Below, piece by piece: positions 2,368-24,559 of a stretch of 64,000 bases of DNA. The notes under the pieces were generated by a model. That model did not search any database, was not told where the DNA came from, and worked only from the letters and a program-made list of their open reading frames with translations. Source of the stretch: Escherichia phage vB_Eco_ZCEC15; the sequence record PQ871103.1. One strand, 5' to 3'. Positions within the stretch are counted from its first letter, which is position 1, and each line of letters starts with the position of its first letter. Both the position numbers and the translations under genes were made by a program.

Positions 2368-3336
2368 TTATTTCAGAAGAGTAACCTCAGCGATTTCTTC
2401 CCAACCGTTTTTGTCGGTCATAATAAAGTCAGCAAGATAAAGAGCAGTACGCAGTGAAACATTGCGTAAACGATTAACATTAACTTTCATCCATGATAAT
2501 GCTTTATAAGTTTCTTCATCAGAAAGACCACGCTTTTGCATCATGTCAGTTGAAAGAATAACATCTTCAACCCTGACCATAATTTCTTCATTAGTGTGAA
2601 CACCCAAATCTAAATAAACCGAGCGGGACACTAATGCTTGTAAATGTGGAGCAAGTTTAGTACCACGGTCTAATTCGCGGTCAATGTCAACGTTTGTGAT
2701 AAAAACAATCGTTCCTTTAAATTCAAACTCACGCTCAATGCCTTTTTCTTCTAAGTAAGAAGACGCAGTGCTCCAGCAGACTTTACGGGTCTCTCCAGTG
2801 TCCAGAGCGGCTTTTAGAAGATTAAGAATGTCCATATCAGAGAAAACATCCACATCATCAATCAAAAGGACAGAATTCTCTTCACGATTATTCCAAAGCT
2901 GCTCATAAAGACCAATACCAGAGATTTTACCATTAATGCTTTTATATTCAATGTATCCAATATCATTTGCTTTATTTAAAGCTTTATCTAAAGAATACGT
3001 TTTACCAATACCTGCTGCACCAGAGATAATCAATGAACGAATATTTCCATTAATAATACCATTCGTCATCATTCCCATAACATTAAATCTTTTATTAATG
3101 CGGGTTTTCATATCTTCATATGATTCTTTAACTTCTTCAACTTTTACACCATCATATGAAATATCTGATTTGTAAACCCAAACACCGCGACGTTTACCGT
3201 CAATTTCAACAAAAACTTTACCATCTCCTTGTGCATCTACCGGAGCATTATCTGGGAACCATTCGCCTAAGAGCTCAAAAGTTCCAGAGATTTCTTTACC
3301 GAAGTAGATACCCTTATTGATAGTTACAGTTTTCAT
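2368..3336 (-). CDS. AAA+ family ATPase (~322 aa)
   Basis: Walker A GAAGIGKT, Walker B VLLIDDVD, sensor-1-like TIVFITN; start adjusted to ATG 3334-3336 after GGAG (track start is GTG); early promoter upstream. Confidence 0.65.
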   Translation of the reverse strand: MKTVTINKGIYFGKEISGTFELLGEWFPDNAPVDAQGDGKVFVEIDGKRRGVWVYKSDISYDGVKVEEVKESYEDMKTRINKRFNVMGMMTNGIINGNIRSLIISGAAGIGKTYSLDKALNKANDIGYIEYKSINGKISGIGLYEQLWNNREENSVLLIDDVDVFSDMDILNLLKAALDTGETRKVCWSTASSYLEEKGIEREFEFKGTIVFITNVDIDRELDRGTKLAPHLQALVSRSVYLDLGVHTNEEIMVRVEDVILSTDMMQKRGLSDEETYKALSWMKVNVNRLRNVSLRTALYLADFIMTDKNGWEEIAEVTLLK

Positions 3337-3372
3337 TTTATTCTCCAATTTCACATTTGTTTTGATAGGGTA

Positions 3373-3402
3373 ATAGTATCACACTACTACCCTACTGTAA
3401 AC
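3373..3402 (-). promoter_or_regulatory. early promoter within stem-loop (PeSL-like)
   Basis: GTTTAC-N18-TACTAT; -10 sits inside inverted repeat TAGGGTA...TACCCTA; upstream of AAA+ gene. Confidence 0.6.
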
Positions 3403-3405
3403 AAT

Positions 3406-3669
3406 TTATTTTAGTGTTTGCCAAATTTTTACTGCTTCGCGACGAGATACTTCTACAGCTCCAAGTTCTACGGCTTTTTGACGTCGGCGAGCATGTAAGT
3501 CATAATGTTTAATGCGTTTATCTTGAAACCAAGAACGTTTCATTCCTATTGCTTCTGCCATTTCATGGAGCTCTTCAATATCTCCATCAGTGAACATATG
3601 ACAATTTTTAGTTAGATGACCGCGAAGTTTCCATCCATGATTCATTAAAACATCTACGTAAACTGTCAT
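3406..3669 (-). CDS. small DUF4031-like protein (87 aa)
   Basis: ORF MTVYVD...HYDL...GAVEV resembling DUF4031 family as recalled; ATGA start/stop overlap with upstream gene. Confidence 0.5.
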   Translation of the reverse strand: MTVYVDVLMNHGWKLRGHLTKNCHMFTDGDIEELHEMAEAIGMKRSWFQDKRIKHYDLHARRRQKAVELGAVEVSRREAVKIWQTLK

Positions 3670-4859
3670 TGATTCTGCTCCAAATATGTTTCTATAATTT
3701 TCTGAGCGAGATAAACTGCGTTATCTTCAGTTGCATCTTCTAAGAAATTTTCAAAATAAGCTGAAATTTCTTCTGTGTCAATCAACTTTTTTACTTCAAT
3801 TAACGTAGTTTTCATTTTATTCCCCAAATCCGTATCAGTTGATAGTTGTATAGTACCATATCGGTGGTTTTCAAGATAAACCCTCTCAAGGAAGTCATCC
3901 CAGAACCCCATGTCTACTTTTTGCTGCATACCGTTCTTAGAAGCTTCAATGGATGCTGCTTCTACTTGATCGACCACATCTTCCAAAAACTCTTGAACCG
4001 TTTTAAATGGATGTTTACCCAGCTTCACGTCGAGAATAAATGAAGCATCTTGAAGTGGATAGACCAAGTCACCAGTTTTGTAAATTTCCAATAGTTGGAG
4101 TCCACCACGACAAGCATGACTCAGGGCTTTCCAGTCAATGCCCTCATTCGCCTCAGCCTTACGAGCACGTTCGCCGTATTCAGCATCTAATTTGTTCAGT
4201 GACTGCTTAAGCTCAATAAGAGAAAGCGTTGTCTGATATTTACGACCCAACACCGTATAGAATGTTTGTGGGCCTGTTTTCTCATGATTATGGAATACCC
4301 ATTCACAGAATTCGTTTTCTGGAAGACGATGCTTAATATCTTCTACCTTAGTCCGACGTAAACGATCTGGAATGCCTTCTTGATAATCAACCCATTGTTC
4401 AGGAATCTGGTTAACAATTTCCAATACACCACGCAGTGCAGCCAATCGAGAACCCTTAACGCCGTATTTAGAAGCTTGCTTGCGAACATATCCTAAATAG
4501 GATTTCATGTTAGTCGTATAAAAACGAGAACGATTGTCTTGAACAAATTTCCATACATCAGGCAAATCAGATTTAACTACCAGTTCAGGTGGAGTGTGGA
4601 GCATATCCAATGCTACAGTTTCACCATCTGCTGCTAATTTAAAGAAATACTTAAGACTGTATAGTTCATGGTCAATATCATCTTTAGTGTTTTTAGATGA
4701 TGTGCTGTTAGTGTTTTTACTCATATGCTCTTTAACATTTCCGATAAGAATATCACGAGCAGGAGGAACAAAGATTTCTTTAAAATCTACATCAGATTCT
4801 GGAGTAGAAGTTCCATAAAGATGACTACCAAAATAGCTTTTCATTACTGTTTTCATCAT
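3666..4859 (-). CDS. Pol-beta-superfamily nucleotidyltransferase-fold protein (397 aa)
   Basis: N-terminal motif FGSHLYGTSTPESDVD (GS...DxD) plus downstream acidic cluster DDIDHE; ATGA overlaps at both ends. Confidence 0.6.
   Translation of the reverse strand: MMKTVMKSYFGSHLYGTSTPESDVDFKEIFVPPARDILIGNVKEHMSKNTNSTSSKNTKDDIDHELYSLKYFFKLAADGETVALDMLHTPPELVVKSDLPDVWKFVQDNRSRFYTTNMKSYLGYVRKQASKYGVKGSRLAALRGVLEIVNQIPEQWVDYQEGIPDRLRRTKVEDIKHRLPENEFCEWVFHNHEKTGPQTFYTVLGRKYQTTLSLIELKQSLNKLDAEYGERARKAEANEGIDWKALSHACRGGLQLLEIYKTGDLVYPLQDASFILDVKLGKHPFKTVQEFLEDVVDQVEAASIEASKNGMQQKVDMGFWDDFLERVYLENHRYGTIQLSTDTDLGNKMKTTLIEVKKLIDTEEISAYFENFLEDATEDNAVYLAQKIIETYLEQNQ
3850..3881 (-). promoter_or_regulatory. 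early-promoter-like repeat copy inside the nucleotidyltransferase ORF
   Basis: Third exact copy of TGGTACTATACAACTATCAACT; -35 spacing atypical (GTTTAT-N20), so function uncertain. Confidence 0.35.
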
Positions 4860-13920: not shown

Positions 13921-14337
13921 TTAAATGTAAATATTTTTGCCGTAATACTTATACCAGTGTGGCTTCATTAAAATTTTTTCATCGAGTCGTTGTTGACTCA
14001 ACTTAATAGCTGATTTGCATGGATTATAATCATTTTTCCATTCTACTGGAATATCGCTGATGTCAGGAACTTCAGTATCTTTTATACTGAACCCGCGTTT
14101 TAAGCATTCCGTTATAATGTCCGATTGACGCTTTCGCAAAAATTCTAACTTATCATAAAAGAACGTAACATGACCAGAACCTAAAATAAACTCGGAAGAT
14201 ATTTTAAAATCTTTAACCCGCTTACCATTTGCTACATGTTTACGAACTATACCAAAAACACGCGGCAATTCACGGTATTCTGCGATTAAATGTTGATCAG
14301 CAAGTTCAGATACTAAAGTCAAATTAATACGAGTCAT
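13921..14337 (-). CDS. denV: endonuclease V (pyrimidine dimer DNA glycosylase)
   Basis: 138 aa; [17 protein letters not shown]...[11 protein letters not shown] matches T4 DenV; early promoter and GGAGG RBS upstream. Confidence 0.95.
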
Positions 14338-14362
14338 TTTATCCCTCCAAGCAATTGTGAAT

Positions 14363-14392
14363 ATACTATCACAATTCTAGGAGAAAGTAAAC
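14363..14392 (-). promoter_or_regulatory. T4-type early promoter (denV)
   Basis: AAAGTTGTTTAC-N18-TAGTAT upstream of denV RBS GGAGG. Confidence 0.6.
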
Positions 14393-14396
14393 AACT

Positions 14397-14927
<531 letters not shown>

Positions 14928-18571: not shown

Positions 18572-18601
18572 ATAGTACCATGGAAGAACAGGGATGTAAA
18601 C
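18572..18601 (-). promoter_or_regulatory. T4-type early promoter
   Basis: GTTTAC-N18-TACTAT; exact 22-mer repeat copy. Confidence 0.6.
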
Positions 18602-18735
18602 AGTTTTGTGAAAAAAATTTTTAAAAAGTTTTAGGGAATTCTAGGGTCAGGAGGGACAATTAAAAGGTAGGATAATATATTATAAAGGGTATAAACTAAA
18701 TGATGCCTAGAGAGACAAGGAAAGGCCTAGATACC

Positions 18736-19612: not shown

Positions 19613-19689
<77 letters not shown>

Positions 19690-19692
19690 TAA

Positions 19693-20358
19693 TTAAAATT
19701 TCATTTTTCTACCTTTAAACCATCCTTCTGGAATTGGGTCAGTTTTCTTAATACGTTTAGAAACTTTTTCATCTAATGAATGAATCCACATCATACCAAA
19801 TTGGGAATTCTTTTCACCTTGTTGGTGTTTATTTTTGGCGTGAGATTCTTTCATTTTATTAATAGTTTCAGGAGTATGATGCTTATTTAAAAATCTGCTA
19901 TTATTTAAAAATTTTTCCCTGTATTCAGGAGTTGACCACAAACGTTTAAATACATTTGAACCATGTTTACGATATTTTTCTTGAAGTAAAATATCATTTT
20001 TAAAACGTGACTTAAACGATTTAGCTCCTTTTAAACTAGCGTCTTTCTTCTGATTTAGCATCTCAGGAATATTTATATGGTCCCATCCACCTTCACCACC
20101 AAGTTTTAAATTATACACATCTGGTCTATTTAAAAACTCTTCTGTGACAATATTTTTCTCGGCTTCAAGCATAGATTCTTTATCATCAAAATACTCTAAT
20201 ATTTCTTTAGAGAAATTTTCTATACCATACTTGTCTTGGGCTCTTTTTAATAATTTACCAGAACCCATATATCCATCATCTAAATTTTCGGTAGAATGCA
20301 CACCAATATAAATTTTATTATTAATTTTATTTGTTATTTTATAAGTGTAATGGAACAT
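19693..20358 (-). CDS. segB: GIY-YIG homing endonuclease
   Basis: 221 aa; N-terminal YTYKITNKINNKIYIGVHS...GYMGSG GIY-YIG motif; located inside the tRNA cluster as T4 segB. Confidence 0.85.
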   Translation of the reverse strand: MFHYTYKITNKINNKIYIGVHSTENLDDGYMGSGKLLKRAQDKYGIENFSKEILEYFDDKESMLEAEKNIVTEEFLNRPDVYNLKLGGEGGWDHINIPEMLNQKKDASLKGAKSFKSRFKNDILLQEKYRKHGSNVFKRLWSTPEYREKFLNNSRFLNKHHTPETINKMKESHAKNKHQQGEKNSQFGMMWIHSLDEKVSKRIKKTDPIPEGWFKGRKMKF

Positions 20359-20399
20359 AAATATCTCCTATTTCTAAGAGTATTTATGTTCCCAAAATA

Positions 20400-20471
20400 T
20401 GGCCCTGGGTGGAATTGAACCACCATCTGGCGATTATGAGTCGCTTGCTTGAACCTTCCAGCTACAGGGCC
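20400..20471 (-). tRNA. tRNA-Ile (anticodon CAU, lysidine-type)
   Basis: Acceptor GGCCCTG/CAGGGCC, anticodon loop CTCATAA, T-arm GGTGGTTCAATTCCACC; no encoded CCA. Confidence 0.8.
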
Positions 20472-20472
20472 T

Positions 20473-20548
20473 TGGTGCTGATTGACGGAATCGAACCGCC
20501 GACGTCCTCATTACAAGTGAGGTGCTCTACCTACTGAGCTAAATCAGC
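20473..20548 (-). tRNA. tRNA-Thr (anticodon UGU)
   Basis: GCTGATTTAGCTCAGTAGGTAGAGC..., anticodon loop CTTGTAA, T-loop GGTTCGATTCC, encoded CCA. Confidence 0.85.
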
Positions 20549-20555
20549 GAAATTA

Positions 20556-20642
20556 CGGAGGCGATAGGATTTGAACCTATGAGTCGCCGGAGCGACTGCC
20601 GGTTTTCAAGACCGGTGCATTAAACCACTCTGCCACGCCTCC
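20556..20642 (-). tRNA. tRNA-Ser (anticodon UGA)
   Basis: Class II tRNA with long variable arm; acceptor GGAGGCG/CGCCTCC, anticodon loop CTTGAAA, T-loop GGTTCAAATCC. Confidence 0.85.
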
Positions 20643-20644
20643 AG

Positions 20645-20718
20645 TCTCCATACAAGGATTTGAACCTTGGACCTCCTGATCCCAAATCAGGCGCTCTACC
20701 AAACTGAGCTACACGGAG
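20645..20718 (-). tRNA. tRNA-Pro (anticodon UGG)
   Basis: TAGCTCAGTTTGGTAGAGC D-arm, anticodon loop TTTGGGA, T-loop GGTTCAAATCC. Confidence 0.85.
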
Positions 20719-20728
20719 TAAATTAAAT

Positions 20729-20802
<74 letters not shown>

Positions 20803-20807
20803 AAATT

Positions 20808-20894
20808 TGGTGCGAGAAGTGGGACTCGAACCCACAAGGAAATCATTCCGCAGCATTTTAAGTGCTGTGCCTTTACCAATTTGACCATTCTCGC
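20808..20894 (-). tRNA. tRNA-Leu (anticodon UAA)
   Basis: Class II tRNA; acceptor GCGAGAA, anticodon loop CTTAAAA, long variable arm, T-loop GGTTCGAGTCC, encoded CCA. Confidence 0.85.
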
Positions 20895-20895
20895 G

Positions 20896-20968
20896 CTGGG
20901 AATAAAGGACTCGAACCTTTGCATCCTGGAATCAAAATCCAGTGCCTTACCAACTTGGCTAATTCCCA
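20896..20968 (-). tRNA. tRNA-Gln (anticodon UUG)
   Basis: Acceptor TGGGAAT/ATTCCCA, anticodon loop TTTTGAT, T-loop GGTTCGAGTCC; 1-nt spacer to tRNA-Leu. Confidence 0.85.
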
Positions 20969-21865: not shown

Positions 21866-22264
21866 TCAGCCTTCATCAACAATAGTGTGAGTATTAGCAT
21901 TTACAATTTGCCACCAATCAAAGCGATTAGAATCCATCGGTTTGTTTTCATTTTCTTTGATAATGTCACGGAGTTCATCTTCAGAGAATGCTTTAGCAAT
22001 TAAATCGGTATACCCACCACGGGGATAATAATTATCACCTGCAAACAAAAGGAAATTTACCTTCCCGGAAGCAACATATGCTTCCTTAGGATACTTGTTT
22101 CCTGCGTGGTCAACCACTTCAATATAACGGTAAGGAATATCGGTTCTTTCAACCCATTGCCATGCCGCCGCAGGGGAATCGAAAGCATCTACACCTAAAC
22201 GATTATCTTCATCTTTAGACGGATTATTTTCGTAATCCGCATATACATAATATTCAACGTTCAT
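21866..22264 (-). CDS. hypothetical protein (132 aa)
   Basis: ORF. Confidence 0.5.
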   Translation of the reverse strand: MNVEYYVYADYENNPSKDEDNRLGVDAFDSPAAAWQWVERTDIPYRYIEVVDHAGNKYPKEAYVASGKVNFLLFAGDNYYPRGGYTDLIAKAFSEDELRDIIKENENKPMDSNRFDWWQIVNANTHTIVDEG

Positions 22265-22449
22265 TATTCACCTTTAGAAATTTTATCCATAACAATAGCA
22301 ATTAAACCAATTAAAAATGCTACTACAAGTGAAAACACATTTTCTGCTGTAGTCAATAATCCACATATAAATCCAACAAACATTGAAAAACTAAAAGCGG
22401 AAGCAGAAATTGCAATAGCAACATTTCGAATTAATTCACAACGTTTCAT
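22264..22449 (-). CDS. small membrane protein (61 aa)
   Basis: Hydrophobic ORF; GAGGAG RBS and early promoter upstream. Confidence 0.5.
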   Translation of the reverse strand: MKRCELIRNVAIAISASAFSFSMFVGFICGLLTTAENVFSLVVAFLIGLIAIVMDKISKGE

Positions 22450-22477
22450 TTTATTCTCCTCAGTAGTAAATAGGGTA

Positions 22478-22507
22478 ATAGTATCACTACCCTATCTAAA
22501 AGTAAAC
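22478..22507 (-). promoter_or_regulatory. early promoter within stem-loop (PeSL-like)
   Basis: GTTTAC-N18-TACTAT embedded in hairpin ATAGGGTA...TACCCTAT. Confidence 0.6.
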
Positions 22508-22741
22508 TTATTTTTTACGAAAAATTGATTTATTTTCTGCTGCCCATTTTTCAATAACTGCAGCAGGACCAGTAACAACAATTTTATCACCGTAATCTTC
22601 TGCGGCGAGTTGACCGAAATTATCTAATGCATCACGAAGAACTCCATGAGGCATTTCACCCATTTTATCTTTCTTGCCAGTGTAAATAAACTCAACTTTT
22701 ACATCAGCAGTTTCAGCAATAAATTCTTGGTAAGTTTTCAT
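22508..22741 (-). CDS. internal protein (capsid-targeted), ~77 aa
   Basis: Starts MKTYQEFIAE, the T4 capsid targeting sequence as recalled; start adjusted to second ATG; own early promoter. Confidence 0.7.
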   Translation of the reverse strand: MKTYQEFIAETADVKVEFIYTGKKDKMGEMPHGVLRDALDNFGQLAAEDYGDKIVVTGPAAVIEKWAAENKSIFRKK

Positions 22742-22775
22742 TTTGATTTCCATTTGGTTTTGTTTTGATAGGGTA

Positions 22776-22805
22776 ATAGTATCACAACTAAAACCCTATG
22801 TAAAC
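22776..22805 (-). promoter_or_regulatory. early promoter within stem-loop (PeSL-like), internal protein gene
   Basis: AAAGTTGTTTACA-N17-TACTAT; 30-nt 3' flank identical to the copy at 23125-23155. Confidence 0.6.
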
Positions 22806-22817
22806 AACTTTGTGAAA

Positions 22818-23075
22818 TTATTTTAAATCTTCTAATCGTTTCTTCATCTTAGAACCATTTTTAGCAATTTCTCCTGCATCGGAGCATAATGCTAAAAGTG
22901 CTTTAACTTTAGTTTGGTCTCCTTTAAAAGATGAAGGATCGACCGCAGCAGCAAGTTCTTTAATACGAGAGAAAAGACGCTCAGCTTCAGCTAAAGCCAT
23001 TCCAAGCTTTACTTCCATACCGTGGGAAGATTCAGTGATAGTAGTTTTTGTAGCAAACTCTTTGAAAGTTTTCAT
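22818..23075 (-). CDS. internal protein (capsid-targeted), 85 aa
   Basis: Starts MKTFKEFATK (CTS-like); own early promoter; ipI position next to 57B. Confidence 0.65.
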   Translation of the reverse strand: MKTFKEFATKTTITESSHGMEVKLGMALAEAERLFSRIKELAAAVDPSSFKGDQTKVKALLALCSDAGEIAKNGSKMKKRLEDLK

Positions 23076-23106
23076 TTTTATTTTCCTAATTAATTTTGAT
23101 GAGGTA

Positions 23107-23136
23107 ATAGTATCACTACCTCATCAGTATGTAAAC
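23107..23136 (-). promoter_or_regulatory. early promoter within stem-loop (PeSL-like), internal protein gene
   Basis: AAAGTTGTTTACA-N17-TACTAT within hairpin GATGAGGTA...TACCTCATC. Confidence 0.6.
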
Positions 23137-23148
23137 AACTTTGTGAAA

Positions 23149-23833
<685 letters not shown>

Positions 23834-23834
<1 letters not shown>

Positions 23835-24559
23835 TATAGTACCTTTAGTGTATTTTTAATTTTAGAAAAAAGTTCTTCAAGAGAACCATCGTTTGTAATT
23901 ACTAAATCGCCATCACGAATTGGCAATCCAGCTTCTGTAATATGTGTATCATTGGATTTTTGACCAGGACGAACTACATGAATTACTGTAGCACCCATCG
24001 CCCTAGCCGCATCCATTTCATGATCTTGACGGGTATCAGGAACGATATAATAATCATAACCTGAGTTAAATTTATCAAGATAATCTAAAGCAAATAATTT
24101 TACCCAGTACATGCGGTCGAAGTTATTAACAATCAAATCCGTACCTAGGGCTTGCATCAGACGACGGACTGACCATTGATCTTCAATATTATTTATAACG
24201 TCAATAATCTTGTTAAATGCTACGGAATTAACTGATTCTTGTCCTTCGTCATCAAAAACAAACACACCTTTAATTGGGCTTTTACCATTAAGATAGCAAA
24301 ATGCTTGTTCCATAATCGTGATTACTTCTAATTTAGTTAGATTTAAATTAGTCTCACGATCATAGTCAATTCCTTCAAACTCTTTACGAGTTAAGCAAGG
24401 ATAGTCGGTATTTGCTGCAAATACTCCCCATGCATAAGCCAATGCATCCTTAATAGGACCAGCAAGTTGGTATTTAACTGCAGAATAATTGCTCATGATA
24501 AAATCTGCAGTAGTATCTTTTCCACTACGCTTTACACCGCTTAAAAAGATTAGTTTCAT
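23834..24559 (-). CDS. 1: deoxynucleoside monophosphate kinase
   Basis: 241 aa; P-loop LSGVKRSGKDT; matches T4 gp1 start MKLIFLSGVKRSGKDTTADFI. Confidence 0.95.

What the first reader, a model, noticed from the sequence alone, without database searches (positions are those of the whole stretch)
22478..23136. Two tandem capsid-targeted internal-protein genes, each with its own stem-loop promoter and identical 3' flanks
ORFs at 22508-22741 and 22818-23075 start with MKTYQEFIAE and MKTFKEF (capsid-targeting-like) but are otherwise unrelated. Each is preceded by an early promoter embedded in a hairpin. The ~30 nt following each upstream stop codon (TGTAAACAACTTTGTGAAATTATTTTAAATC at 22800-22830 and 23130-23160) are identical. 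This looks like modular duplication and shuffling of promoter-gene cassettes at a hypervariable internal-protein locus.
Basis: partly seen in the sequence, partly recalled or inferred. Interest (0 to 1): 0.5.

Follow-up and report, generated by a model that had tools for sequence, protein, structure and literature searches.

The report
T-even phage internal-protein gene cassettes
This is the well-known variable "internal protein" slot of a T4-like phage, holding two small injected-protein genes (Ip5 and Ip6), each with its own hairpin-embedded early promoter; the repeated 31 bases are the recombination joint by which such gene cassettes are gained and lost, as first described in 1994.

Summary
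Two minus-strand ORFs (22818-23075, 85 aa; 22508-22741, 77 aa) carry capsid-targeting leaders and are otherwise unrelated. Each follows a T4-type early promoter whose -10 box lies in a hairpin loop. An exact 31-mer occurs twice (22799-22829 and 23130-23160; none expected by chance).

The locus is the ipI slot of a Tequatrovirus, between 57B/Acb1 and trna.4. The genes are Ip5, 100% identical to the RB15 entry Z35082 from the 1994 series, and Ip6. Phage T6 has the same pair, and 91 phage records match the locus at 99% or more.

The 31-mer is not a generic early-gene site. The 24 nt before the -35 are 24/24 identical, against 8.9 +/- 3.2 for other early-promoter pairs in the window. It comprises the last three codons and stop of the upstream gene, the promoter's upstream element and the -35.

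Yersinia phage ZN18 equals the window minus exactly one 331-nt repeat unit, so it lacks ip5, and the crossover lies inside the 31-mer. Ip5's final DLK-stop is a copy of the 57B 3' end.

Packaging and anti-restriction function are inferred, not shown. Interest is low.

The parts
23149..23607 (-). Gene 57B (anti-CBASS Acb1), the conserved upstream border of the slot. Its last three codons and stop lie inside repeat copy 1.
   Evidence: Pfam PF23474 Acb1, E=2.7e-60. T4 synteny. The C-terminus WA[DE][DE]LK* is conserved in divergent homologs.
23130..23160 (-). Exact 31-nt repeat, copy 1: DLK codons and TAA of 57B, upstream element TTTCACAAAGTT, and -35 GTTTAC(A).
23097..23136 (-). Promoter module P1. 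-35 GTTTAC at 23136-23131; TGn and -10 TACTAT at 23112-23107. Hairpin arms TGATGAGGTA (23126-23117) and TACCTCATCA (23106-23097), with the -10 in the 10-nt loop. Identical to the T4 ipI promoter.
   Evidence: (dG -8.1 kcal/mol, z -3.55).
22818..23075 (-). ip5, 85 aa. IPI-type leader MKTFKEFATKTTITE|S, giving a predicted mature protein of 70 aa with pI 9.2. Predicted fold is a helical hairpin.
   Evidence: 100% identical to Ip5 of RB15 record Z35082.1. PHROG 3499. ITE|SSHG invariant in homologs. Model pLDDT 71.
22799..22829 (-). Exact 31-nt repeat, copy 2: DLK codons and TAA of ip5, upstream element, and -35.
   Evidence: The DLK-stop of ip5 is a copy of the 57B 3' end.
22768..22805 (-). Promoter module P2. 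-35 at 22805-22800; -10 TACTAT at 22781-22776. Hairpin arms ATAGGGT (22799-22793) and ACCCTAT (22774-22768).
   Evidence: dG -9.5 kcal/mol, z -3.09. 96.6% identical to the upstream half of the T4 trna.4 promoter.
22508..22741 (-). ip6, 77 aa. IPII/III-type leader MKTYQEFIAE|T, giving a predicted mature protein of 67 aa with pI 6.5. Predicted fold is a small alpha/beta domain.
   Evidence: Named ip6/Ip6 in the JK08, JK1 and VR7 records. PHROG 8111. Model pLDDT 79.5.
22470..22507 (-). Promoter module P3 (for trna.4). -35 at 22507-22502; -10 at 22483-22478. Hairpin arms ATAGGGTA (22495-22488) and TACCCTAT (22477-22470). It lacks the 31-mer upstream part.
   Evidence: (D2).
22264..22449 (-). trna.4-like 61-aa ORF, the conserved downstream border of the slot.
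   Evidence: 84% DNA identity to T4 trna.4-trna.2. PHROG 1692. T4 annotation.

Best explanation
The region is the ipI hypervariable slot of a T-even (Tequatrovirus) phage, bounded by 57B/Acb1 and trna.4. Here it carries the Ip5 and Ip6 alleles.

Each gene is a self-contained cassette. It has a strong T4-type early promoter (UP-like element, -35 GTTTAC, TGn, -10 TACTAT), with the -10 in the loop of a short hairpin. This is followed by a leader with a Shine-Dalgarno sequence, a 10-15-residue capsid-targeting sequence ending in an I-x-E prohead-protease site, and a small unrelated protein body.

The conserved parts are the promoter module, the CTS-coding start and the next promoter module. They act as portable homology. 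Homologous recombination between them, within one genome or between co-infecting relatives, deletes, inserts or swaps the variable bodies.

The 31-nt identity is the footprint and substrate of one such event. The 57B 3' end plus the proximal part of its promoter was duplicated downstream of ip5, which gave Ip5 a DLK-stop tail copied from 57B. Recombination across the two copies removes exactly 331 nt, which is the ip5 cassette, as seen in phage ZN18.

Inferred, not shown: the proteins bind the scaffolding core through the CTS, are trimmed by gp21, are injected with the DNA, and each neutralises a specific first-line host defence. By analogy with T4 IPI, IPII and IPIII, the most likely target is a GmrSD-family type IV restriction enzyme.
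For: Locus identity: synteny and 97% DNA identity with T4 gene 1-57A-57B up to 35 nt into the IP gene, and 84% from the -10 of the trna.4 promoter onward. 91 phage records match at >=99%. T6 has the same ip5-ip6 pair.

Gene identity: Ip5 is 100% identical to RB15 Ip5. Ip6 is named as such in several records.

CTS: positions 4 and 7 are aromatic and an I-x-E site is present, as in T4 IPI/II/III. The defining criteria come from PMC9026906.

Cassette recombination: the module halves form a mosaic across T4, RB15, T6 and the window, with the switch point in the invariant GTGATA(C/T)TATTA core. Deleting one 331-nt unit from the window in silico aligns without gaps to ZN18 over about 5 kb, with 0 mismatches in the 400-nt bin spanning the junction. 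Left of the single 31-mer the sequence is 57B-specific, and right of it P2-specific. That exact junction occurs in 6 distinct phages. The slot ranges from 79 nt (empty) to 1663 nt in 32 other loci.

Not a generic site: 24/24 identity against 8.9 +/- 3.2.

Ip5 tail copied from 57B: WA[DE][DE]LK* is conserved in all but two of the 36 fetched 57B-related loci. The Ip5 paralog at the other IP locus diverges exactly after ...RLE.

Hairpin under selection as a structure: 38% of 60 distinct modules have a stem of >=7 bp bracketing the -10, against 3% of shuffles, with about ten or more unrelated stem sequences.

Function by analogy: IPI, IPII and IPIII each inhibit a distinct GmrSD enzyme (PMC12373910; PMC9391042).
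Against: There is no direct evidence here that Ip5 or Ip6 are in virions, are cleaved, or counter any defence. I found no proteomic or genetic study of them.

Their bodies have no sequence or fold similarity to IPI/II/III or to any solved structure.

The promoters are predicted, not mapped. No late-promoter motif (TATAAATA) lies inside the locus, although IPs must be available when proheads assemble. The nearest upstream one is at 24197, inside gene 1.

The direction of the ZN18/window difference (deletion or insertion) cannot be told from two sequences.

One promoter per IP gene is not universal. In more distant relatives IP genes abut each other, or overlap the 57B stop (ATGA), without a promoter of their own.
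Confidence: 0.82

Rival explanations
1. The identical flanks are just one conserved regulatory site (the early-promoter consensus with its UP element) found at all early genes. They say nothing about duplication or recombination.
For: T4 early promoters are known to share extended consensus beyond -35/-10, including A/T-rich UP elements at -40 to -60 (PMC2988021). One other promoter in the window (-35 at 18601) has 17/19 of TTTCACAAAGTTGTTTACA.
Against: Among the window's 12 GTTTAC-18-TAnnnT promoters, the 24 nt before the -35 share on average 8.9 identities (sd 3.2, next best 15), whereas P1 and P2 share 24/24. The third module of the same locus (P3) lacks the element. The identity extends into coding sequence. 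ZN18 shows a crossover exactly there.
Confidence: 0.03
2. The hairpin-promoter modules are active, structure-directed recombination elements rather than passive stretches of homology. Possibilities are cruciform or hairpin cleavage by a phage nuclease such as endonuclease VII, or excision as mini-circles as proposed for PeSLs.
For: The hairpin is conserved as a structure with many different stem sequences. In the T4/RB15/T6/window mosaic the switch point lies in the hairpin loop core. Arbiol et al. detected PeSL-ORF mini-circles in RB49/phi1 and suggested site-specific or homologous recombination (PMC2839356).
Against: The best-resolved event (window versus ZN18) has its crossover in the 31-mer upstream of the hairpin. 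The left arm already differs between the partners, as ordinary homologous recombination between the longest exact repeat predicts. The loop core is also the longest invariant stretch, so homology alone explains crossovers there. Arbiol et al. themselves call the T-even IP elements analogs, not homologs, of PeSLs. T4 has very active general recombination (established knowledge).
Confidence: 0.12
3. Ip5 and Ip6 are packaged internal proteins, but their role is not counter-defence. For example, they could be DNA-associated, charge-balancing or ejection-assisting head components.
For: Mature Ip5 is basic (pI 9.2), like T4 IPI-III. The T4 head holds about 1000 IP molecules embedded in the DNA (PMC3012670). 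No defence target is known for Ip5 or Ip6.
Against: Mature Ip6 is near-neutral (pI 6.5). IP genes are dispensable and hypervariable, and the slot can be empty (L012, L013), which is hard to reconcile with a structural need. All three T4 IPs tested proved to be specific GmrSD inhibitors. The slot adjoins another anti-defence gene, Acb1.
Confidence: 0.12
4. The CTS-like N-termini are vestigial or coincidental, and the products are ordinary early cytoplasmic proteins that are not packaged.
For: Only early-type promoters are visible. No late promoter lies within the locus. There are no proteomic data.
Against: The Ip6 leader is 10/10 identical to the IPII/III leader, whose first 10 residues suffice for packaging of foreign proteins (PMC9026906). 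The leader and cleavage site are conserved while the bodies vary. The hairpins lack U-tracts and no terminator-like site was found in the locus, so a late transcript from TATAAATA at 24197 could read through.
Confidence: 0.04

Closest known systems
Polymorphic ipI locus of T-even phages (Repoila, Tetart, Bouet and Krisch 1994, EMBO J 13:4181; EMBL records such as Z35082 'RB15 DNA for Ip5, Ip9, Ip7, Ip8')
   Same: Same slot (57B to trna.4) and same genes: Ip5 is 100% identical, and Ip6 carries the name used in that series. The leaders are shared and the bodies unrelated. The genes are flanked by conserved promoter/stem-loop sequences proposed to mediate shuffling (summaries).
   Different: Nothing of substance. 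The original paper could not be read here, so I cannot say whether it noted two details found here: the exact 331-nt unit that differs between window-type and ZN18-type phages, and the 57B-derived DLK-stop tail of Ip5.
T4 internal proteins IPI*, IPII and IPIII (CTS-targeted, injected inhibitors of distinct GmrSD type IV restriction enzymes)
   Same: N-terminal capsid-targeting sequence with a gp21 I-x-E site, small size, location in an IP locus, and an own early promoter. The T4 ipI promoter is identical to the window's P1.
   Different: The mature parts show no sequence similarity. No T4 internal protein appears among the 50 listed Foldseek PDB matches, none of which is significant. Targets and activity of Ip5 and Ip6 are unknown.
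PeSLs, promoter-early stem-loops of RB49/phi1 and other T4-like phages (Arbiol et al. 2010; Comeau et al. 2014)
   Same: A compact early promoter combined with a stem-loop flanks small variable ORFs and coincides with indel boundaries between close relatives.
   Different: The elements here are built on the T4-type early promoter and have AT-rich stems without poly-G/C. They are not followed by a U-tract, so they are not terminator-like. The PeSL authors state that the T-even IP elements are analogs, not homologs.

Membership tests
T-even internal proteins (CTS-bearing IPs) | N-terminal capsid-targeting sequence of the MKT(Y/F)(Q/K)EF type. Residues 4 and 7 are critical for targeting (PMC9026906). 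| tested here: met
   Ip6 MKTYQEFIAE is 10/10 identical to T4 IPII/III. Ip5 MKTFKEF is 7/7 identical to T4 IPI.
T-even internal proteins (CTS-bearing IPs) | Prohead protease (gp21) site L/I-x-E at the end of a 10-19-residue propeptide. | tested here: met
   Ip6 has IAE at residues 8-10. Ip5 has ITE at residues 13-15, and ITE|SSHG is invariant among homologs even where the leader varies.
T-even internal proteins (CTS-bearing IPs) | Encoded in one of the two IP loci (57B-trna.4, or e-denV). | tested here: met
   Both genes lie between 57B and trna.4.
T-even internal proteins (CTS-bearing IPs) | Physically packaged in the head, processed, and injected with the DNA. | not testable with these tools
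   No proteomic or genetic report on Ip5 or Ip6 was found. Virion mass spectrometry is needed.
GmrSD (type IV restriction) inhibitors of the IPI*/IPII/IPIII kind | Sequence or fold relationship of the mature protein to a characterised inhibitor. | tested here: not met
   BLASTP of the bodies gives E>1 for Ip5 and Ip6 against IPI/II/III. There are no PDB sequence hits. Foldseek best E-values are 0.12 and 0.47, to unrelated folds.
GmrSD (type IV restriction) inhibitors of the IPI*/IPII/IPIII kind | Relief of restriction by a specific GmrSD enzyme. | not testable with these tools
   This requires plaque assays. The analogy rests on PMC12373910.
T4-type early promoter | -35 GTTTAC, about 17-18 nt spacer, TGn extended -10, a TAnnnT -10, and an A/T-rich upstream (UP) region. 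| tested here: met
   All three modules have GTTTAC-18-TACTAT with TG before the -10. P1 is identical to the T4 ipI promoter. Activity itself was not measured.
PeSL sensu Arbiol et al. 2010 | Early promoter combined with a stem-loop at the borders of variable ORFs. | tested here: met
PeSL sensu Arbiol et al. 2010 | Sigma-70-like promoter with a G/C-rich (polyG/polyC) stem acting as a composite promoter-terminator. | tested here: not met
   The stems are AT-rich (TGATGAGGTA, ATAGGGTA) and are followed by CAAAA or TTTAC rather than a U-tract. No terminator-like site lies in the locus. The authors class these elements as analogs.

The most novel reading that the evidence does not exclude
The hairpin-embedded promoter modules may be more than passive homology. 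They could be structure-specific recombination sites, conserved as hairpins through compensatory change, that target cassette exchange to the IP slots. In addition, Ip5 and Ip6 may be injected inhibitors, with new folds, of host defences not yet identified.
Probability: 0.15. Interest if true: 0.55.

Novelty: already known. Interest (0 to 1): 0.15.

Why it matters
IP slots are where T-even phages keep interchangeable, pre-packaged counter-defence proteins, so which alleles a phage carries helps set its host range.

This window adds no new principle. The locus, the gene names, the shared leader and the promoter/stem-loop shuffling model were published in 1994 and extended in 2007-2014.

What remains open is the targets of Ip5 and Ip6. 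These proteins occur in hundreds of sequenced phages, including T6 and several therapeutic candidates. All three T4 IPs turned out to be specific GmrSD inhibitors, so Ip5 and Ip6 are good candidates for finding further type IV restriction variants.

The window/ZN18 pair differs by one exact 331-nt repeat unit at this locus. That makes it a clean natural system for measuring how often such cassettes are lost or gained.

Tried and rejected
- **Family scans:** Pfam and NCBIfam scans of Ip5, Ip6 and trna.4 found nothing above threshold.
- **Structure searches:** The PDB sequence search found nothing. Foldseek of both AlphaFold models against the PDB gave only generic helical-hairpin and ferredoxin-like matches with E>=0.12, so no functional inference was drawn.
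- **Homolog search:** The large-database search gave only close relatives, 5 clusters for Ip5 and 11 for Ip6. The alignments behind the models are therefore shallow.
- **Papers not held:** Repoila 1994, Bair 2007, Rifat 2008 and Miller 2003 could not be read. What they say is taken from papers that cite them.
- **Wasted searches:** A search for 'Ip5/Ip6' returned only inositol-phosphate papers. Searches failed on term syntax.
- **Tool missteps:** A global alignment of the window against L039 misplaced the gap and was replaced by an ungapped in-silico-deletion test. My first promoter scan missed TACTAT-type -10 boxes and was redone.
- **Terminator idea:** I considered the hairpins as intrinsic terminators. 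This was rejected because there is no U-tract and the scan found no site in the locus.
- **Late promoter:** I looked for a late promoter inside the locus and found none.
Full report
**1. What is in the sequence**

All genes in this part of the window run on the minus strand. In the direction of transcription the order is:
- gene 1 (dNMP kinase, 23834-24559)
- 57A (23604-23834)
- 57B (23149-23607)
- an 85-aa ORF (22818-23075)
- a 77-aa ORF (22508-22741)
- a 61-aa ORF (22264-22449)
- three further small ORFs
- a cluster of eight tRNA genes (19613-20968)

57B is the anti-CBASS phosphodiesterase Acb1 (Pfam PF23474, E=2.7e-60).

The two ORFs of the finding begin MKTFKEFATKTTITE and MKTYQEFIAE. With the first 20 residues removed, they show no similarity to each other or to T4 IPI, IPII or IPIII.

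**2. The repeat**

None is expected in shuffled sequence. It is the core of a 71-nt direct repeat at 86% identity, spaced 331 nt.

On the coding strand it reads GAT TTA AAA TAA TTTCACAAAGTT GTTTAC A. It therefore contains the last three codons (Asp-Leu-Lys) and the stop of the upstream gene, which is 57B for one copy and the 85-aa ORF for the other. It also contains 12 nt of upstream element and the -35 hexamer.

**3. Promoters and hairpins**

Three modules precede the 85-aa ORF, the 77-aa ORF and the 61-aa ORF, with -35 hexamers starting at 23136, 22805 and 22507. Each has GTTTAC, an 18-nt spacer and TACTAT, with TG before the -10. This is the UP/-35/TGn/-10 architecture described for T4 early promoters (PMC2988021).

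In each module a perfect stem of 10, 7 or 8 bp brackets the -10, which lies in the loop. As single-stranded DNA they fold at -8.1, -9.5 and -5.2 kcal/mol, with z-scores of -3.6, -3.1 and -2.0.

None is followed by a T-run, and the terminator scan found no site in the locus.

The feature is not limited to this locus. Of 60 distinct GTTTAC-18-TAnnnT modules in the window and in the related loci I fetched, 38% have a perfect stem of at least 7 bp around the -10, against 3% after shuffling. About ten or more unrelated stem sequences are used. The structure, not the sequence, is what is kept.

**4. Which locus this is**

The 1.5 kb around the finding is at least 99% identical in 91 phage records and present in 778, almost all Tequatrovirus.

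In T4 the same position holds a single gene, ipI, between 57B and trna.4. The window is 97% identical to T4 from gene 1 through 57B, the promoter and the first 35 nt of the IP gene. Identity then stops, and resumes at 84% from the -10 of the trna.4 promoter onward.

The 85-aa protein is 100% identical to Ip5 of the 1,448-bp EMBL entry Z35082 ("Bacteriophage RB15 DNA for Ip5, Ip9, Ip7, Ip8"). That entry's note places it between 57B and tRNA.4. The 77-aa protein is annotated ip6/Ip6 in the JK08, JK1, VR7 and VR25 records. Phage T6 has the same ip5-ip6 pair. PHROGs classes both as internal head or virion proteins.

**5. Leaders**

T4 IPI begins MKTFKEFTSTTTPVSTITE|A, and T4 IPII and IPIII begin MKTYQEFIAE|A. 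Ip5 therefore has the IPI-type leader, with an I-T-E site at residues 13-15. Ip6 has the IPII/III-type leader, identical in all 10 residues.

According to the review of Black's work (PMC9026906):
- The first 10 residues of IPIII suffice for packaging.
- Residues 4 and 7 matter for targeting, and residues 8 and 10 for processing.
- gp21 cuts after L/I-x-E.

In Ip5 homologs the leader varies but ITE|SSHG is invariant. The predicted mature proteins are 70 aa (pI 9.2) and 67 aa (pI 6.5).

**6. Is the flank identity only a generic early-gene signal?**

No. The window has 12 promoters of the form GTTTAC-18-TAnnnT on the minus strand. Over the 24 nt before the -35, the 66 pairs share 8.9 identities on average (sd 3.2). 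The next best pairs share 15, while P1 and P2 share 24 of 24. The third module of the same locus lacks the element.

**7. Evidence for cassette recombination**

(a) Mosaic modules. I aligned the 13 intergenic modules of the window, T4, RB15 and T6.
- The 5' halves fall into three types, and each stays with the upstream gene.
- The 3' halves (right arm, leader, Shine-Dalgarno) also fall into three types, and each stays with the downstream gene.
- The two halves occur in different combinations. The T4 trna.4 promoter has the 5' half of the window's P2 (96.6% identity) and the 3' half of the window's P3. RB15 puts the same combination in front of ip9.
- The switch point is the invariant core GTGATA(C/T)TATTA.

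(b) An exact recombinant. The slot is 699 nt in the window and 368 nt in locus L039, a difference of 331 nt, which equals the repeat spacing. L039 is Yersinia phage vB_YepM_ZN18.
- Removing one repeat unit from the window in silico gives a sequence that aligns to L039 without gaps over about 5 kb. There are 0-12 mismatches per 400 nt and none in the 400-nt bin spanning the junction.
- L039 has a single 31-mer. The sequence to its left is 57B-specific and the sequence to its right is P2-specific.
- The same junction occurs at 100% identity over 193 nt in six distinct phages. Many more have 57B followed directly by an ip6-type gene.

(c) Variable slot content. In 32 other loci the slot ranges from 79 nt (only one hairpin promoter; L012, L013) to 1663 nt with about five leader-bearing ORFs. 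These counts are lower bounds. In many divergent phages the first IP gene overlaps the 57B stop codon (AAATGAAAAC...) and my script missed it.

(d) Origin of the Ip5 tail. The C-terminus WA[D/E][D/E]LK-stop is conserved in all but two of the 36 fetched 57B-related loci, so DLK is native to 57B. An Ip5 paralog (54% identity) lies at the other IP locus in phage HMD-9. It aligns up to ...MKQRLE and then continues KYISGASEK-stop, whereas Ip5 ends RLE-DLK-stop. The point of divergence is the first base of the 31-mer. Ip5's last three codons, its stop and the adjoining promoter part are therefore a copy of the 57B 3' end.

(e) Exchange between loci and of leaders. The paralog in HMD-9 carries the other leader type and lies next to the lysozyme gene, so bodies move between the two IP loci. 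Leaders are also exchanged: L008 has an Ip6 body with an MKTFKEF leader.

**8. Function**

Nothing here shows that Ip5 or Ip6 are packaged or what they do.
- AlphaFold models from shallow alignments give a helical hairpin for Ip5 (pLDDT 71) and a small alpha/beta domain for Ip6 (pLDDT 79.5).
- Neither model has a significant PDB match. There are no PDB sequence hits and no Pfam or NCBIfam family.
- The inference of an injected counter-defence role rests on the leader, the locus and analogy. IPI inhibits GmrSD of strain CT596. IPII and IPIII each inhibit a different GmrSD enzyme, with no cross-protection (PMC12373910; PMC9391042).

One open point is timing. The visible promoters are early-type, and no late-promoter motif lies in the locus. 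The nearest upstream TATAAATA on this strand is at 24197, inside gene 1. The hairpins lack U-tracts, so a late transcript from there could read through 57A, 57B and the ip genes. That is an inference.

**9. Comparison with what is known**

Arbiol et al. 2010 write that Repoila et al. [quoted passage not shown] They add that more than 30 IP variants are known, and that the T-even elements are analogs rather than homologs of PeSLs, being based on T4 early promoters with weaker, AT-rich stems. Comeau et al. 2014 repeat this. The T4 head review describes the IPs as a diverse set of defence proteins sharing only the CTS.

The finding is thus a correct, independent rediscovery of a published phenomenon, in a phage nearly identical to many sequenced ones. 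The original paper was not available to me. I therefore cannot say whether it already reported the exact one-unit difference from ZN18-type phages, or the 57B-derived tail of Ip5. Both fit its model.

**10. Verdict**

The novelty rating is "already known" and interest is low. The remaining open question is the targets of Ip5 and Ip6.

Noticed in passing
window 13921-14891: Lysozyme gene e (14397-14891, minus) is followed directly by denV (13921-14337), with only one hairpin early promoter (-35 at 14392) between them. T4 has ipIII and ipII there. The second IP locus is therefore empty in this phage, and the two ORFs of the finding are the only CTS-bearing ORFs in the 64-kb window.
   Followed up: yes
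window 3340-3407: An early promoter with a hairpin (-35 at 3402) lies upstream of a 328-aa ATPase-like ORF (2368-3354). Its 3' half (TACCCTATCAAAACAAATGTGAAATTGGAG) is identical over 30 nt to the RB15 ip8>trna.4 module, although it is 19 kb from the IP slot. Related promoter modules are thus shared between distant loci.
   Followed up: partly
L005 (phage HMD-9) 2001-2282: An Ip5-family paralog (54% identity over 63 aa) sits at the other IP locus. Its ATG overlaps the end of the lysozyme gene, it carries a different leader (MKTYSEFLSE) and it has no promoter of its own. About 228 phage records have such a copy, at roughly 48% identity, next to the lysozyme gene e.
   Followed up: partly
L009-L043 (IMG/VR loci), around position 4456: In many more distant T4-like phages the 57B stop codon overlaps the start of the first IP gene (AAATGAAAAC..., ATGA overlap). 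This suggests translational coupling rather than a separate promoter. Some IP genes also abut each other with no promoter between them (L015, L016, L018-L020).
   Followed up: partly
window 22742-22753: ip6 has an in-frame ATG four codons upstream (MEIK-MKTYQ...). The same ATGGAAA(T/C)(C/T)AAAATG arrangement precedes RB15 ip8. Some database entries start the protein there (P0006, 81 aa), which would bury the capsid-targeting sequence. GGAAA more likely serves as the Shine-Dalgarno sequence.
   Followed up: no
window 18583-18613: The early promoter with -35 at 18601 carries TTTCACAAAACTGTTTACA, 17/19 identical to the upstream element of P1 and P2. It is the only other near-copy in the window, and it has no hairpin around its -10.
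   Followed up: no
L004 (RB15, Z35082) 668-754: The ip9>ip7 module looks like a hybrid: a C-type left arm (AATAGAGTA) with an a-type right arm (TATCTCATC). By eye its stem is mismatched, so recombinant modules may not always keep the hairpin.
   Followed up: no
window 19690-20399: The tRNA cluster has a gap of about 700 nt between tRNA-Arg (19613-19689) and tRNA-Met (20400-20471). Related phages differ here: OE5505 has an HNH endonuclease gene, JK08 has ten tRNAs, and T4 has segB. The tRNA region is thus another variable segment.
   Followed up: no
L008 (IMG/VR) slot position 410: An Ip6-type body (77 aa) carries an MKTFKEFIAESS leader instead of MKTYQEFIAETA. The leader itself is therefore exchanged between IP bodies.
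   Followed up: no
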